52,936 bases of DNA from Escherichia phage JEP7: the sequence record MT764207.1; one strand, 5' to 3'. The notes below the pieces were generated by a model. It was not told the DNA's origin, did not search any database, and was given only the letters and a program-made list of their open reading frames with translations. A program made the position numbers and the translations under genes. Within the stretch, counting starts at the first letter, position 1, and each line of letters opens with the position of its first letter. This document shows positions 1,451 through 52,610 of this stretch, in pieces.

Positions 1451-3013
1451 ATGTCGATAACCCCAAGCAGCACGCCTAACGTCGGATACCAGCGTCCTGA
1501 GCTGACTAAGAACGCTGGTAAGTACCGAATGATTAAGGACTGCATCGAGGGTCAGGAAGCTGTTAAAGCACGCGGTGATTTTTATCTGCCTCGTCCTGAC
1601 CCTACGAACTGCACAGAAGAAAACCTGATGCGGTACAATTCGTACCTGCGTCGCGCTGTGTTCTATAACGTACTACAGCGAACTCTTTCGGGTATGACTG
1701 GCCTGGTATTCCAGCAGCAACCTGAGATGCTGATGCCTGATGATATGGAAGTGCTGAAAGTAAATATCGACGGTGCAGGTATCGGTGCTATTCAGCAAAT
1801 GCGTAAGTGCTTTAAATCAGTGCTTGCGTTTGGACGGGCAGGATTGCTGACTGACTTTCCAAAAGCACGTATCGGTGAGTTTGGTGAATCCATTGGTTTT
1901 ACACGTAAAGAACTAATGGACGGAGAAGTGCAGCCGACAGTAACGCTGTACATGCCATGGCAGATTATAAACTGGCGAGAAGAGTATCGCAACGGCAAAG
2001 TGATGCTCACTCAAGTTGTCATTTGCGAGCAAATACCGGGGGTTACTGATGGCTTTCAGCAAGACTACACACCCGTGTGGCGTCACCTTTACCTGGATGA
2101 AGAAGGCAATTGCAACCAGTCTTTGTGGGTCAATAAGGGCGACAAGAATGCGCAGAACGTCTCCGGTGGTGCGTTGTATGTCACGCAGGAAAATGTTGTC
2201 TTACGCGACTCCAATGGCTTACCGTTGAAGTTTATTCCGTTCCAGTTTATTGGTTCTGAAACAAACAGCGCTGAGATTGACCCTCCGCCGATGTACGACT
2301 TAGCTGTGCTTAATATTGCACACTACCGTAACTCTGCTGACTACGAAGAGTCATGCTTCGTAACAGGTCAACCCACAGTATGGGCGTCTGGGCTTACTGA
2401 GGCATGGGTTGAAGATGTTCTGAAGGGTGAACTGCGACTTGGTTCGTTTGGTGGTATTCCGCTGCCGGCTAACGCCGCTGTAGGTATTATCCAGACCAAC
2501 CCTAACACCCAGCCGTTTGAAGCGATGAAGCAAAAAGAAGCGCAGATGATTGCAATCGGTGCTCGACTGATTCGCGAGAACGGTAAGGTAGAACGACGCG
2601 AAGTTGAGATTAAGAACGAAGCTGCATCTGAGGCATCGCTTATCGTAACTGTTGCGCAGAACGTTGAAGCTGCTTACCGTAAGGCAATCGAATGGTGTGG
2701 TCTGTTCTACGGACACCCTAAAGAAGAGATTACGATTAACCTGAGCTACAACTTCATCTATAGCCAGTTGACGTATCAAGAACGCCAACAGCTGGTTAAC
2801 GAATGGATTGCTGGTGCTATCACGTTCAGTGAGATGCGTAGTAATCTCAAACAGGCTGGCATTGCTAAACTCACTGACGAAGAAGCCAAGAAGCTCATTG
2901 ACGAAGAGCTGGCTGAACGTGATGCACGTGAGGTAGCAAAAGAAGCAGAAAAGAACGCTCAAGCAGCTAAGAACAGCGATGGGCAGGAAAATAATCCAGA
3001 AAAAACTGAATAA
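1451..3013 (+). CDS. portal protein (putative)
   Basis: 520 aa ORF directly after terL (stop/start 1 nt apart) and before scaffold/capsid genes; acidic C-terminal tail; assignment by synteny and size. Confidence 0.55.
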   Translation: MSITPSSTPNVGYQRPELTKNAGKYRMIKDCIEGQEAVKARGDFYLPRPDPTNCTEENLMRYNSYLRRAVFYNVLQRTLSGMTGLVFQQQPEMLMPDDMEVLKVNIDGAGIGAIQQMRKCFKSVLAFGRAGLLTDFPKARIGEFGESIGFTRKELMDGEVQPTVTLYMPWQIINWREEYRNGKVMLTQVVICEQIPGVTDGFQQDYTPVWRHLYLDEEGNCNQSLWVNKGDKNAQNVSGGALYVTQENVVLRDSNGLPLKFIPFQFIGSETNSAEIDPPPMYDLAVLNIAHYRNSADYEESCFVTGQPTVWASGLTEAWVEDVLKGELRLGSFGGIPLPANAAVGIIQTNPNTQPFEAMKQKEAQMIAIGARLIRENGKVERREVEIKNEAASEASLIVTVAQNVEAAYRKAIEWCGLFYGHPKEEITINLSYNFIYSQLTYQERQQLVNEWIAGAITFSEMRSNLKQAGIAKLTDEEAKKLIDEELAERDAREVAKEAEKNAQAAKNSDGQENNPEKTE

Positions 3014-3018
3014 AGCTA

Positions 3019-3047
3019 TTTACTTTCGGTTTACCTGGCTATATAAT
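3019..3047 (+). promoter_or_regulatory. sigma70-like promoter (TTTACT-N17-TATAAT)
   Basis: -35 TTTACT at 3019-3024, 17-nt spacer, -10 TATAAT at 3042-3047, in the gap between portal and scaffold genes. Confidence 0.45.
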
Positions 3048-3190
3048 CCTTCATGTCAACCGCGCAACAGCCGGCCACGAGAGTCTGCAGGGCTCAGTGG
3101 ATTTCGGATGGCTGGCTGCGCGGTTTGACCCAAACCTGTTCAGAGCCCACTTGAGTGGATTGAGCCCCTCTCATATAGGATTGTAAAATT

Positions 3191-3904
3191 ATGGCACTTA
3201 AAACAGTTGTAACTGACCTTACCGAAGTTGATGAAGGCTTCCGTGGCCTGTATATCAAAGACGAAGCATCTGGCGCATTCCGTTTGGACGTTGAACCAGA
3301 CGAAAAAACGCTGAAAGAATTAGAAGACCTGCGCAAAGAAAAACAGCGTATGGAACAGCACACCAAAAAGCTTCTCGAAGAAAAGAAAAAAGAAGCTGAA
3401 CGTGCTCGCCTGGCTGAAGAAGAACGCGCACGTCGTGAGCGTGATGTTGAATCTCTTGAGCGCTCTATCAAAGAGAAACATCAGGCTGAACTGGAACAGT
3501 ATACTAATCGTCAGGCACAGCTGCAAGCTCAGCTGGAAGCGCAAATGGTTGATAACCTGGCGCTGAACCTGGCTAACCAACTCTCTGACACCCCGGCACT
3601 TATTATGCCACACATCAAGGCCCGACTGCGCGCTCAGGAAATTGATGGTAAGTGGCGTACTACTGTCGTGGATGTTATGGGTAACCCGACTGCTACAACG
3701 CCAGATGAACTAGTGGAACATATGCGCGCTGATAAGCAGTTTGCACCTCTTGTGCGTGGAACCAAGGCTGGCGGTGGCGGTGCCAACGGCGGCGGAGCTA
3801 ATCCTGGTGGGAACGGCGGTGGCGAACAGCACACTTTCGGAGGCGGGGACGACCGCATAGCACGTGCTCGTGCTAAAATCCAAAACACACAATGGGGCAA
3901 ATAA
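3191..3904 (+). CDS. scaffolding protein (putative)
   Basis: 237 aa, highly charged coiled-coil-like (EEKKKEAERARLAEEERARRERD), Gly-rich C-terminus, located between portal and major capsid genes. Confidence 0.5.
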   Translation: MALKTVVTDLTEVDEGFRGLYIKDEASGAFRLDVEPDEKTLKELEDLRKEKQRMEQHTKKLLEEKKKEAERARLAEEERARRERDVESLERSIKEKHQAELEQYTNRQAQLQAQLEAQMVDNLALNLANQLSDTPALIMPHIKARLRAQEIDGKWRTTVVDVMGNPTATTPDELVEHMRADKQFAPLVRGTKAGGGGANGGGANPGGNGGGEQHTFGGGDDRIARARAKIQNTQWGK

Positions 3905-3907
3905 GTT

Positions 3908-4885
3908 ATGTCACTGTATATTTTTAACGAACAAGTACGTTCTACCGCCACCGAACTGGTCGACCAGGACGTACAGAAGTTTAACGAAGCTTCTGCTGGT
4001 ACCCTTATCCTGGGTAACCAGTACGTAATCGGTGATTACGTTGAGCAGGCAATGTGGCAGCTGGTTGACGGTATCGCTACTCGTCGTAACGCTTACGCAG
4101 GCACCAACAAAGTTGATGCGCAGACTCTGGGCCAGATTCTGGACCGCTCTGTTAAGATCGACGGCCGTGTTGGTCCTCTGAACATTACCGGTACTATGAT
4201 GCGTCGCATCGGTGCAGGTGATACTGAACCAGCAGCTGTTGTTGCTGCACAGGCTTCTGCTGCGATGTTCCAGGATTACCTGAACACCACTGCTGCATGT
4301 CTGGTAGCTGCTATCGGTGCAAACGCTGATGTTGTTCTGGACGTAACTGCAGGCTCTGGTGCTGCTGCAAACATCACCATGCAGAACCTGAACAAAGTCA
4401 ACGCGAAGATGGGTGACCGTTCTCAGCAGATTCGTGCGTACATCATGCACTCTACTGCGTTCCACTCCCTCATCGACCAGGCTATCAACAACACAGAACA
4501 CCTGTTCCAGATTGGTGACCTGAACGTGTACAAAGACTTCCTGGGTCGTCGTTATGTCGTTTCCGACATCCCGGCTCTGGTTGATGGCGCCGGTGCTTCC
4601 GCTAAGTACCGCACTCTGGGTCTGACCCCGTCTGCTGCAATCGTTCAGGTCGGCGGCCTGTACGACATGGTTACCTCCGAGCAAACCGGTGGTGAAAACA
4701 TCCTGCGTCAGATGCAGGGTGAATACGACTTCAACGTGTCGCTGAAAGGCTACAGCTGGGTCGGTCACAAAGCTGGTCAGTCTCCGACTGATGAAGACCT
4801 GGCTGCTCAGGCTTCCTGGTCTAAAGTTGCAACTTCCAACAAAGACACCGCTGGTGTTATGTTGCTGGCTAAGTCTGCAATCTAA
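3908..4885 (+). CDS. major capsid protein (putative)
   Basis: 325 aa, follows scaffold gene by 3 nt; strong intrinsic terminator immediately downstream; assignment by synteny. Confidence 0.6.
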   Translation: MSLYIFNEQVRSTATELVDQDVQKFNEASAGTLILGNQYVIGDYVEQAMWQLVDGIATRRNAYAGTNKVDAQTLGQILDRSVKIDGRVGPLNITGTMMRRIGAGDTEPAAVVAAQASAAMFQDYLNTTAACLVAAIGANADVVLDVTAGSGAAANITMQNLNKVNAKMGDRSQQIRAYIMHSTAFHSLIDQAINNTEHLFQIGDLNVYKDFLGRRYVVSDIPALVDGAGASAKYRTLGLTPSAAIVQVGGLYDMVTSEQTGGENILRQMQGEYDFNVSLKGYSWVGHKAGQSPTDEDLAAQASWSKVATSNKDTAGVMLLAKSAI

Positions 4886-4907
4886 CCCACAAACGGGACT
4901 AACAAAA

Positions 4908-4937
4908 GGCGAGCTGACGAGCTCGCCTTTTTTATTT
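4908..4937 (+). terminator. rho-independent terminator
   Basis: GGCGAGC-TGACGA-GCTCGCC hairpin (4908-4927) followed by TTTTTTATTT. Confidence 0.75.
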
Positions 4938-4963
4938 ACACGTATAAAGTTCTGGTATATAAT
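4935..4963 (+). promoter_or_regulatory. sigma70-like promoter (TTTACA-N17-TATAAT)
   Basis: -35 TTTACA 4935-4940, -10 TATAAT 4958-4963; 27 nt upstream of ATG at 4990. Confidence 0.5.
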
Positions 4964-10392: not shown

Positions 10393-10421
10393 TTTACTTA
10401 ACCGAGGCGCCAGCCTATAAT
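10393..10421 (+). promoter_or_regulatory. sigma70-like promoter embedded in an inverted repeat
   Basis: TTTACT 10393-10398, N17, TATAAT 10416-10421; GCGCCAGC...GCTGGCGC dyad straddles the -10. Confidence 0.45.
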
Positions 10422-13258: not shown

Positions 13259-13287
13259 TTTACTTGGGTAAACTTACTGAGTATAAT
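13259..13287 (+). promoter_or_regulatory. sigma70-like promoter flanked by an inverted repeat
   Basis: TTTACT 13259-13264, N17, TATAAT 13282-13287; CGGCCAT...ATGGCCG dyad flanks it. Confidence 0.45.
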
Positions 13288-41550: not shown

Positions 41551-41580
41551 TTTACTCTGGTTTAATAACGTGTATATAAT
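41551..41580 (+). promoter_or_regulatory. sigma70-like promoter (TTTACT ... TATAAT)
   Basis: in AT-rich divergent intergenic region 41458-41610. Confidence 0.4.
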
Positions 41581-52581: not shown

Positions 52582-52610
52582 TTTACTTACTTCGCGTAAC
52601 TCGTTATAAT
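52582..52610 (+). promoter_or_regulatory. sigma70-like promoter (TTTACT-N17-TATAAT)
   Basis: -35 52582-52587, -10 52605-52610, upstream of 52643 gene. Confidence 0.5.

What the first reader, a model, noticed from the sequence alone, without database searches (positions are those of the whole stretch)
3048..3190. Structured leader upstream of the scaffold-capsid operon
Between the promoter (-10 at 3042-3047) and the scaffold start at 3191 there is a 140-nt leader with a long-range helix (CCGCGCAACAGCC at 3060-3072 pairing with GGCTGGCTGCGCGG at 3110-3123) and a small dyad CCACT-TG-AGTGG near 3148. Such leaders can set translation or stability of very abundant late proteins.
Basis: seen in the sequence. 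Interest (0 to 1): 0.3.

Follow-up and report, generated by a model that had tools for sequence, protein, structure and literature searches.

The report
Conserved structured leader of phage capsid mRNA
The 138 bases between a bacterial-type promoter and the scaffold and capsid genes of this Salmonella/E. coli phage form a very stable RNA hairpin plus a conserved tail; selection has kept this stretch nearly unchanged across related phages, so it is a real but uncharacterised control region of a familiar general kind.

Summary
The window is a Rosemountvirus-type myophage. A near-consensus sigma-70 promoter (TTTACT-17-TATAAT, 3019-3047) lies after the portal gene. A leader of about 138 nt follows it. 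P1 starts within 0-3 nt of the predicted transcript start.

The leader is under strong purifying selection. It is 98.4% identical to Loughboroughvirus, against 54-75% at flanking third codon positions, and about 85% against 47-69% in a more distant clade.

It is the only long leader among six same-type promoters in the genome; the others are 20-26 nt.

The small dyad is not conserved: two substitutions break it in the distant clade. A different hairpin, P2 (3152-3173), is invariant.

The invariant P1 apical loop (GGGCUC) is complementary to two invariant GAGCCC boxes downstream.

Covariation is uninformative, because 27 of 33 pairs never vary. There is no Rfam match, no conserved ORF, no host homolog and no second copy.

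Best reading: a cis-acting 5' leader RNA that stabilises or processes the scaffold-capsid mRNA and may tune its translation. The mechanism is untested. Interest is modest.

The parts
3019..3047 (+). Sigma-70-type promoter: -35 TTTACT (3019-3024), 17-bp spacer, -10 TATAAT (3042-3047) within the conserved GGYTATATAATC.
   Evidence: Pattern scan, 10 of 12 matches. Both hexamers are invariant in 9 variants while the spacer varies. The authors of phage S144 predicted a promoter at the homologous place (PMC7432712). It is one of six TTTACW-17/18-TATAAT promoters in the window.
3053..3055 (+). Predicted transcription start, 6-8 nt after the -10. This is inferred, not mapped.
   Evidence: Based on the usual spacing from the -10. 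The hairpin begins 0-3 nt downstream of this point in every variant.
3055..3129 (+). P1: 75-nt irregular hairpin. Lower stem 3055-3066/3117-3129; ACA bulge 3067-3069; middle stem 3070-3078/3107-3116; 2x2 internal loop; G.U-rich upper stem 3081-3088/3097-3104.
   Evidence: Energy -43 kcal/mol, z = -4.51; the - strand gives -34.8 kcal/mol. It is the minimum-energy fold in all variants. Of the 27 P1 pairs counted, 21 never vary (all 6 P2 pairs are also invariant). The changes that do occur are C-G to U.G, A-U to G.U to G-C, G.U to G-C, and A-U to G.U.
3089..3096 (+). P1 apical loop AGGGCUCA, invariant in all variants.
   Evidence: It is complementary to GAGCCC at 3143 and to UGAGCC(C) at 3161.
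3130..3142 (+). Variable linker after P1.
   Evidence: Most substitutions and indels of the leader fall here and in the P1 internal loops.
3143..3148 (+). Box X1, GAGCCC: invariant and complementary to the P1 loop.
   Evidence: Duplex energy -13.4 kcal/mol. Two separate complementary sites are found in only 0.2% of dinucleotide shuffles.
3147..3158 (+).
   Evidence: Present in Rosemountvirus and Loughboroughvirus. Broken by C3150G and U3156C in the fHy-Eco03, SOI901, UViG and ERZ variants.
3152..3173 (+). P2 candidate hairpin, UGAG(U)GG-AUUGAGCC-CC(U)CUCA. Its 8-nt loop contains box X2 (GAGCCC, 3162-3167).
   Evidence: RNAalifold consensus. All 6 pairs and the whole loop are invariant. The hairpin is weak on its own.
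3167..3190 (+). C/U-rich tract, then the SD AGGA (3177-3180), then an A/U-rich spacer to the start codon.
   Evidence: Sequence. The SD is weaker than the GGAGG and AAGAGG sites of the other promoter-proximal genes. Predicted accessibility is 0.57.
3191..4885 (+). Scaffold gene (3191-3904) and major capsid gene (3908-4885), the two cistrons served by the leader.
   Evidence: ORFs; annotations of relatives.
4904..4931 (+). Intrinsic terminator (12-bp stem plus a T run) that closes the scaffold-capsid unit. The next promoter follows at once (4935-4963).

Best explanation
This is a cis-acting structured 5' leader RNA of the bicistronic scaffold-major capsid mRNA. Host RNA polymerase starts at about 3053-3055, from a strong sigma-70-type promoter placed after the portal gene. 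The first 75 or so nt fold at once into a very stable hairpin, P1, which leaves at most about 3 unpaired nt at the 5' end. By analogy with the E. coli ompA 5' UTR and other 5'-terminal stem-loops, this would block 5'-end-dependent decay through RppH and RNase E. That would lengthen the life of the message for the phage's most abundant proteins. On read-through transcripts from the terminase-portal genes, the same hairpin could be a processing site. The remaining ~60 nt, of which the first ~45 are conserved, are weakly structured and keep the RBS open. They carry two invariant GAGCCC boxes complementary to the invariant P1 apical loop. These probably form a pseudoknot or loop-loop contact, or a protein-binding surface, that tunes translation initiation at a rather weak SD. 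Shown here: the promoter motif, the hairpin, the strand preference, the purifying selection, and the fact that this leader is unique among the phage's promoters. Inferred: the transcription start, the stabilising effect, the tertiary contact, and any effect on translation.
For: P1 folds at -43 kcal/mol with z = -4.5. The opposite strand is 8 kcal/mol weaker because of G.U pairs. P1 is predicted in all variants and begins 0-3 nt from the predicted start. Leader 3053-3176 is 98.4% identical to SE4 and S144, against 54-75% at third codon positions. It is the most conserved 124-nt window between 1500 and 7000 when compared with SE4. Against the distant clade it is about 85% identical versus 47-69%. 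Within the same intergenic region the promoter spacer is only 67-80% identical. Variable columns make up 8 of 66 paired positions but 21 of 58 unpaired ones. Both apical loops are invariant. Stem substitutions are wobble-compatible on the + strand. The five other TTTACW-N17/18-TATAAT promoters have leaders of 20-26 nt with strong SDs; only this one has a 137-nt leader, with 58% GC against a genome value of 46%. The unit is closed by a strong terminator right after the capsid gene. Two separate sites complementary to the loop arise in about 0.2% of dinucleotide shuffles. The RBS is predicted to be open.
Against: There is no experimental transcript map, so the 5'-terminal position of P1 rests on a predicted start. 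Covariation is statistically nil: 1 pair with a double change, and the shuffle control reaches the observed value in 175 of 500 trials. The structure is therefore supported by thermodynamics and conservation only. A plain stabiliser hairpin would not need 23-nt and 19-nt invariant blocks, loops included, so something sequence-specific is also being recognised and remains unidentified. One isolate (PiR) carries a substitution that breaks a pair in the lower stem. The loop-box complementarity was noticed after the fact.
Confidence: 0.5

Rival explanations
1. Autogenous translational operator. The invariant loops and boxes are the binding site of a phage protein, most plausibly free scaffolding or capsid protein. 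That protein would stabilise a pseudoknot next to the RBS and hold down translation when unassembled protein accumulates. This is compatible with the best explanation and could act together with it.
For: Primary-sequence invariance extends to unpaired loops and to a weakly structured 3' domain, which fits protein recognition. The hairpin loop is complementary to boxes 10-35 nt upstream of the SD, the layout seen in the rpsO/S15 and T4 gene 32 operators (my own knowledge). P22 scaffolding protein is known to regulate its own synthesis post-transcriptionally (Casjens & Adams 1985 and Wyckoff & Casjens 1985, listed as refs 52-53 of PMC5529062).
Against: No binding protein has been identified. No covariation supports the pseudoknot, because everything is invariant. 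The P22 operator has not been defined, so there is nothing to compare by sequence. The RBS is not predicted to be occluded.
Confidence: 0.2
2. RNase III processing site of the T7 type. P1, about 28 bp of interrupted helix placed right after a promoter in an intergenic region, would be cut by host RNase III. Read-through transcripts and locally started transcripts would then yield the same scaffold-capsid mRNA, and the upstream portal mRNA would keep a protective 3' hairpin.
For: P1 is a long irregular hairpin with internal loops. No terminator lies between the portal gene and the promoter, so read-through RNA must contain P1 internally. In T7, promoters are often followed directly by RNase III sites, such as R1.1, R3.8, R4.7, R6.5 and R13 (my own knowledge).
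Against: Cleavage cannot be predicted reliably from sequence. This does not explain the conserved 3' domain. The other promoter junctions of this phage have no such hairpin.
Confidence: 0.15
3. DNA-level element. The conserved inverted and direct repeats (GGGCTC and GAGCCC, GCCGGC, CCGCGC and GCGCGG) would be binding sites for a DNA-binding protein. Candidates are a repressor acting as a roadblock downstream of the promoter, a packaging site or a replication site.
For: There are three copies of a hexamer in two orientations, and conservation is very high. Position-specific invariance is what a protein operator would show.
Against: The fold is 8 kcal/mol better on the + strand as RNA. It relies on G.U pairs that would be A.C mismatches on the other strand or in a cruciform. 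Stem substitutions preserve RNA pairing through wobble. The physical genome ends of relative S144 were mapped elsewhere, either in cluster C or in the gap between clusters E and A (PMC7432712). There is no AT-rich or iteron architecture. The element is single-copy.
Confidence: 0.07
4. A distinct functional RNA rather than a passive leader. It could be a new riboswitch-like sensor, a self-cleaving ribozyme, or a 5'-UTR-derived RNA acting in trans, for example one that multimerises through its complementary loops as phi29 pRNA does.
For: The invariant complementary loops and the extreme conservation of about 120 nt resemble aptamer-like RNAs. There is no match to any known family, so it would be new.
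Against: There is no terminator or obvious expression platform, and the RBS is not sequestered. No alternative nested fold is competitive: it comes out at -33 to -46 kcal/mol against -54. There is no antisense target in the phage and no host homolog. The distribution is very narrow.
Confidence: 0.06
5. A small protein-coding gene, as some automatic annotations call within this interval.
For: Short ORFs exist: 33 aa at 3053-3154 and 29 aa at 3097-3186 in the window. Hypothetical proteins are annotated here in KE25, KM, SOI901, PK3 and vB_SenM-1. Three substitutions (3141, 3150, 3156) fall at a spacing of 3.
Against: No ORF is shared. Start and stop codons are not conserved. Uncompensated 1-nt indels shift every frame between clades, and the annotated ORFs lie on different strands and frames in different records.
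Confidence: 0.02

Closest known systems
E. coli ompA 5' UTR and other 5'-terminal stem-loop mRNA stabilisers (Emory, Bouvet & Belasco 1992; Arnold, Yu & Belasco 1998; from my own knowledge)
   Same: The leader length is similar (133 nt for ompA, about 137 nt here). A hairpin sits at the extreme 5' end, followed by single-stranded segments and a second small hairpin before an accessible RBS. Both serve a very abundant structural protein.
   Different: There is no sequence similarity. P1 is much longer and more stable than ompA hp1. Conservation here extends to the loops. Stabilisation has not been measured.
Phage T7 RNase III processing signals that follow promoters (R1.1, R6.5, R13 and others; from my own knowledge)
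   Same: An irregular hairpin of about two or more helical turns lies immediately downstream of a promoter, in an intergenic region of a lytic phage, and read-through transcripts cross it.
   Different: This phage uses host-type promoters. The site is single rather than a recurring signal. Cleavage is untested, and there is an extra conserved 3' domain.
Autoregulatory leaders: the T4 gene 32 pseudoknot, E. coli rpsO (S15), and post-transcriptional autoregulation of P22 scaffolding protein (refs 52-53 of PMC5529062)
   Same: A structured element with possible loop-to-downstream pairing lies upstream of an open RBS, and the regulated gene is a scaffolding protein, as in P22.
   Different: No protein partner has been shown and no pseudoknot has been demonstrated. 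The P22 operator is undefined, so homology cannot be assessed.
HK022 put RNA (PMC9378689)
   Same: A structured RNA encoded directly downstream of a sigma-70 promoter and acting in cis.
   Different: put is about 70 nt and folds into two long stem-loops in a V shape that bind the RNAP beta' zinc-binding domain. Here there is one 75-nt hairpin plus a weak 22-nt hairpin 22 nt away. The unit is short (1.85 kb), ends at a terminator, and is followed by its own next promoter, so processive antitermination is not obviously needed.

Membership tests
Any Rfam 15 RNA family (riboswitches, ribozymes, sRNAs, leaders, phi29 pRNA and others) | A covariance-model match at or near the family's gathering score | tested here: not met
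   cmscan of 2500-3700 and of 3040-3200 at E <= 10 gave only chance matches: bZIP intron at 15.9 bits against a threshold of 41, and mir-203 at 13.3 bits against 65. ARAGORN found no tRNA or tmRNA.
5'-terminal stem-loop mRNA stabiliser (ompA type) | The hairpin begins within about 0-4 nt of the transcript's 5' end | tested here: inconclusive
   The hairpin begins 7-8 nt after the -10 hexamer in all variants, which puts it 0-3 nt from the predicted start. The start is predicted, not mapped.
5'-terminal stem-loop mRNA stabiliser (ompA type) | The hairpin prolongs mRNA half-life, and its disruption shortens it | not testable with these tools
   This needs rifampicin chase experiments or reporter assays.
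T7-type RNase III processing signal | An interrupted double helix of about 20 bp or more in an intergenic transcript | tested here: met
   P1 has about 29 pairs in three coaxial segments with small internal loops.
T7-type RNase III processing signal | Specific cleavage by RNase III | not testable with these tools
   This needs rnc mutants or an in vitro cleavage assay.
HK022 put-type antiterminator RNA | Two adjacent long stem-loops of about 70 nt in total, just downstream of the promoter | tested here: not met
   The location fits. The architecture differs: a single 75-nt hairpin and a weak, distant 22-nt hairpin, compared with the description in PMC9378689.
HK022 put-type antiterminator RNA | Confers read-through of downstream terminators through the RNAP beta' zinc-binding domain | not testable with these tools
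   A strong terminator lies at 4904-4931, but a new promoter follows it at once.
Riboswitch or attenuator with alternative folds | Competing structures of similar energy, one of which hides a terminator or the RBS | tested here: not met
   Forced alternative pairings score -32.8 to -46.4 kcal/mol against -54 for the minimum-energy fold. There is no terminator in the leader. RBS accessibility of 0.57 is like that of the other genes.
Autogenous translational operator (S15, gene 32 or P22 gp8 type) | A structured site near the RBS that is bound by the encoded protein | not testable with these tools
   Only the layout is seen: a loop complementary to boxes upstream of the SD.
Small protein-coding gene | An ORF with start, stop and frame conserved among relatives | tested here: not met
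Packaging (pac or cos) or terminal-repeat site | Coincides with the physical genome ends or lies next to the small terminase gene | tested here: not met
   In S144 the physical end was placed either in cluster C or in the gap between clusters E and A, not in the portal-scaffold gap (PMC7432712). The element lies 3 kb downstream of the terminase start.

The most novel reading that the evidence does not exclude
The leader could be a new class of phage regulatory RNA. Its invariant hairpin loop (GGGCUC) would dock onto one of two invariant GAGCCC boxes to build a compact fold. A specific partner would read that fold: free scaffold or capsid protein, a host factor, or a small molecule. This would couple synthesis of the head proteins to assembly or to the state of the cell. 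Less likely, the RNA could act in trans or multimerise through its complementary loops.
Probability: 0.2. Interest if true: 0.6.

Novelty: new member of a known kind. Interest (0 to 1): 0.33.

Why it matters
Rosemountvirus and Loughboroughvirus phages are widely isolated for biocontrol of Salmonella and E. coli, yet how they schedule and dose expression of their head proteins using only host RNA polymerase is unknown. This leader is among the most strongly constrained non-coding stretches near the head genes, and it is unique among the phage's promoter-proximal regions. That makes it the obvious handle for studying, or engineering, scaffold and capsid expression. If the invariant loops and boxes prove to bind a protein, it would give a defined operator for scaffold autoregulation, which has been known in P22 since 1985 without a mapped RNA site. 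If it is only a stabiliser or a processing hairpin, it is an ordinary example of a familiar device.

Tried and rejected
Rfam at permissive thresholds on two ranges found nothing, and the tRNA/tmRNA scan found none.

I looked for more diverse relatives for covariation in several ways:
- two exact-core DNA scans of viral contigs;
- a capsid-based locus search;
- one gapped-pattern scan of metagenome contigs;
- one scan of genome contigs.

These returned only the same three clades: one new metagenome variant, and one copy identical to the window in a MAG.

The next-closest capsid relatives, Aeromonas pAEv1818 and Serratia Scapp, carry a MuF-like gene in place of this interval and have no such leader.

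A covariance model built from the alignment found no second copy in the window. The formal pair count showed that covariation is uninformative.

A host origin was rejected. The only E. coli hits are phage genomes deposited as plasmids.

An antisense partner inside the phage was rejected, because only chance matches of 11 nt or fewer were found.

A nested alternative 'switch' fold that uses the duplicated GUGGAUU and GAGCCC segments was rejected on energy. An SD-sequestering helix, CCUGU:AUAGG, costs about 10 kcal/mol when combined with P2 and is not favoured.

The direct repeats themselves (a 6-mer and a 7-mer) are about as frequent as chance would give in 138 nt. Only their invariance and their complementarity to the loop are notable.

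The small-ORF reading was rejected, and so was the packaging-site reading.

Full report
**What the window is.** BLAST against phage records shows a Rosemountvirus-type myophage of Salmonella and E. coli. It is 96-98% identical to BP63, SE13, UPF_BP2, PiR and others. The gene order is large terminase (1-1449), portal (1451-3013), a 177-bp gap, scaffold (3191-3904) and major capsid protein (3908-4885).

**Checking the observation.**
- All quoted sequences are at the quoted coordinates.
- The -10 TATAAT (3042-3047) pairs with TTTACT (3019-3024) across a 17-bp spacer. Both hexamers are invariant in nine sequence variants, while the spacer varies.
- The authors of the related phage S144 predicted a promoter at the homologous place. 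They state that the phage has no RNA polymerase of its own.
- P1 has a lower stem (3055-3066/3117-3129), a middle stem (3070-3078/3107-3116), an upper stem (3081-3088/3097-3104) and an apical loop (3089-3096).
- P1 alone folds at -43 kcal/mol, z = -4.5, with 0 of 200 shuffles as good. The reverse strand gives -34.8 kcal/mol, because several pairs are G.U.
- The whole leader is less striking (z = -2.0 to -2.7). The reason is that its 3' third (3131-3200) is no more structured than shuffled sequence (z = +0.8).

**Conservation.** Sixty phage records contain the interval. With one IMG/VR contig and one metagenome contig, they collapse into three clades:
- Rosemountvirus;
- Loughboroughvirus (S144, SE4, ZCSE2);
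- a more distant set (fHy-Eco03, KE25, KM, UViG_3300045988_135134, ERZ1463040, Erwinia phage SOI901).

Leader 3053-3176 is 98.4% identical to Loughboroughvirus, while third codon positions of the portal, scaffold and capsid genes are 51-75% identical. Against the distant clade it is about 85% identical versus 47-69%. Fisher tests against pooled third positions give p = 3e-20 and p = 5e-9. Compared with SE4, it is the most conserved 124-nt window between 1500 and 7000. The promoter spacer in the same gap is only 67-80% identical. The leader is therefore under purifying selection about as strong as that on amino-acid-determining positions.

**Where variation falls.** Eight of 66 paired columns vary, against 21 of 58 unpaired columns. 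The variable positions are the 5' end, the internal loops of P1, the linker after P1 and the SD-AUG spacer. Both apical loops and the blocks GAGUCUGCAGGGCUCAGUGGAUU and GGAUUGAGCCCCUCUCAUA never vary.

With a model-guided alignment of 11 distinct sequences, 27 of 33 pairs never vary, one pair has a double change, and the shuffle control is not exceeded (175 of 500). The test is uninformative rather than negative.

The few stem changes keep pairing in the + strand RNA sense:
- C3057U (C-G to U.G);
- A3058G (A-U to G.U, and G-C in ERZ1463040);
- U3113C (G.U to G-C);
- A3077G in phage Sz (A-U to G.U).

One change, in PiR (U3126C), breaks a pair.

**The small dyad.** It is not part of the conserved element. 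In the distant clade, C3150G and U3156C each destroy one of its four pairs. A different hairpin, P2 (3152-3158/3167-3173, loop AUUGAGCC), is invariant and is the RNAalifold consensus, though it is weak.

**A candidate tertiary contact.** The invariant P1 loop AGGGCUCA is complementary to two invariant boxes. One is GAGCCC at 3143-3148 (duplex -13.4 kcal/mol). The other is UGAGCC(C) at 3161-3167, inside the P2 loop (-8.9 kcal/mol). Two separate complementary sites in the 60 nt downstream occur in about 0.2% of dinucleotide shuffles. This is a post hoc observation. It suggests a pseudoknot or kissing-loop contact, but there is no variation with which to test it. Nested alternative folds using these repeats are 8-21 kcal/mol worse than the minimum-energy fold, so a classic two-state switch is unlikely.

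**Context.** The window carries a family of TTTACW-N17/18-TATAAT promoters at 3019, 4935, 10393, 13259, 41551 and 52582. The other five have leaders of 20-26 nt with strong SDs such as GGAGG and AAGAGG. Only the scaffold promoter has a 137-nt leader, with 58% GC against 46% for the genome, and it ends in a weaker SD (AGGA). A 12-bp-stem terminator lies at 4904-4931, right after the capsid gene, and the next promoter follows at once. Scaffold plus capsid therefore form a discrete transcription unit of 1.85 kb. No terminator separates the portal gene from this promoter, so read-through RNA should also contain P1. The predicted RBS accessibility (0.57) is within the range of the other genes (0.34-0.66), which argues against simple SD occlusion.

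**What it is not.**
- No Rfam family matches, and there is no tRNA or tmRNA.
- No ORF is conserved. Starts, stops and frames all differ, and 1-nt indels are uncompensated. The 'hypothetical proteins' annotated here in some records lie on different strands.
- There is no host homolog.
- There is no second copy and no antisense partner in the phage.
- It does not coincide with the genome ends mapped for S144.
- The nearest capsid relatives outside the group have a MuF-like minor capsid gene in this position and no such leader.

**Interpretation.** The best-supported reading is a cis-acting 5' leader RNA. P1, placed at the very start of the transcript, is what a 5'-terminal stabiliser looks like. 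The closest analogue is the ompA 5' UTR: 133 nt, a 5' hairpin, single strands, a second hairpin and an open RBS (from my own knowledge). On read-through transcripts P1 could equally be an RNase III site, as in T7, where promoters are followed by R sites (also from my own knowledge).

A hairpin alone does not explain invariant loops or an invariant, unstructured 3' domain. Some sequence-specific recognition is implied, either a tertiary contact or a protein. Autoregulation by free scaffolding protein, known for P22 (refs 52-53 in PMC5529062), is the most attractive specific idea, but it cannot be tested here. A put-like antiterminator was considered. The architecture differs from the published put structure, and the short, self-contained unit gives little need for one.

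**Verdict.** The small dyad should be dropped and replaced by P2 and the loop-box complementarity. It is an undescribed member of a familiar kind, the structured 5' leader of an abundant phage mRNA. It is confined to one phage lineage and is of modest interest unless the invariant parts turn out to bind a specific partner.

Noticed in passing
window 4935-4963, 10393-10421, 13259-13287, 41551-41580, 52582-52610 (and 3019-3047): A family of near-identical sigma-70-type promoters (TTTACW, 17-18 bp spacer, TATAAT). Each sits 20-26 nt upstream of a gene with a strong SD. This looks like the phage's standard promoter cassette for the structural and packaging modules.
   Followed up: partly
window 4904-4963: A strong terminator (12-bp stem, AAAAGGCGAGC...GCTCGCCTTTT, symmetric enough to work in both directions) lies directly after the capsid gene. 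The -35 of the next promoter overlaps its T tail. This forms a compact terminator-promoter junction.
   Followed up: no
window 1-52936 vs OM313461.1: The window has the same length (52,936) and the same coordinates as Escherichia phage vB_EcoM_PiR. It is nevertheless only about 98.3% identical over 2400-4000, with 2 differences in the leader (T3126C, A3142G). It may be a different isolate or another version of the record.
   Followed up: partly
PP583539.1; NZ_CP067310.1; NZ_JBVNBN010000003.1; L028 (JAEWER010000021.1): Probable mislabelled records. A 'Listeria phage' is 98% identical to this Salmonella/E. coli phage. Two E. coli 'plasmids' of about 53 kb are really this phage type. A 'Bacillota bacterium' MAG contig carries a leader identical to the window.
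   Followed up: no
L015 (Aeromonas phage pAEv1818) 1123-2235; L016 (Serratia phage Scapp) 995-2041: The nearest capsid relatives outside the group carry a MuF-like minor capsid or head-assembly gene between portal and scaffold. The Rosemountvirus group lacks it and has the promoter and leader in that place.
   Followed up: partly
window 3141, 3150, 3156: The three substitutions that separate the clades in the 3' domain are spaced by multiples of 3. They would be third-position changes (two of them synonymous) in the 29-aa GTG ORF at 3097-3186. No start, stop or frame is conserved, so this is probably chance (about 1 in 9), but it is unexplained.
   Followed up: partly
MT074434-MT074446 records (Salmonella phages emiel, rivia, zoltan, triss and others): About a dozen related genome records are linearised so that they end exactly one base after the portal stop codon (window 3015). 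Their ends therefore cut between the portal gene and this promoter. This is presumably an arbitrary choice of orientation, not a physical end.
   Followed up: no
window 3588-3675: A hairpin inside the scaffold gene gives a weak match to a plant microRNA model (MIR160, 19.5 bits against a threshold of 48). This is almost certainly chance.
   Followed up: no
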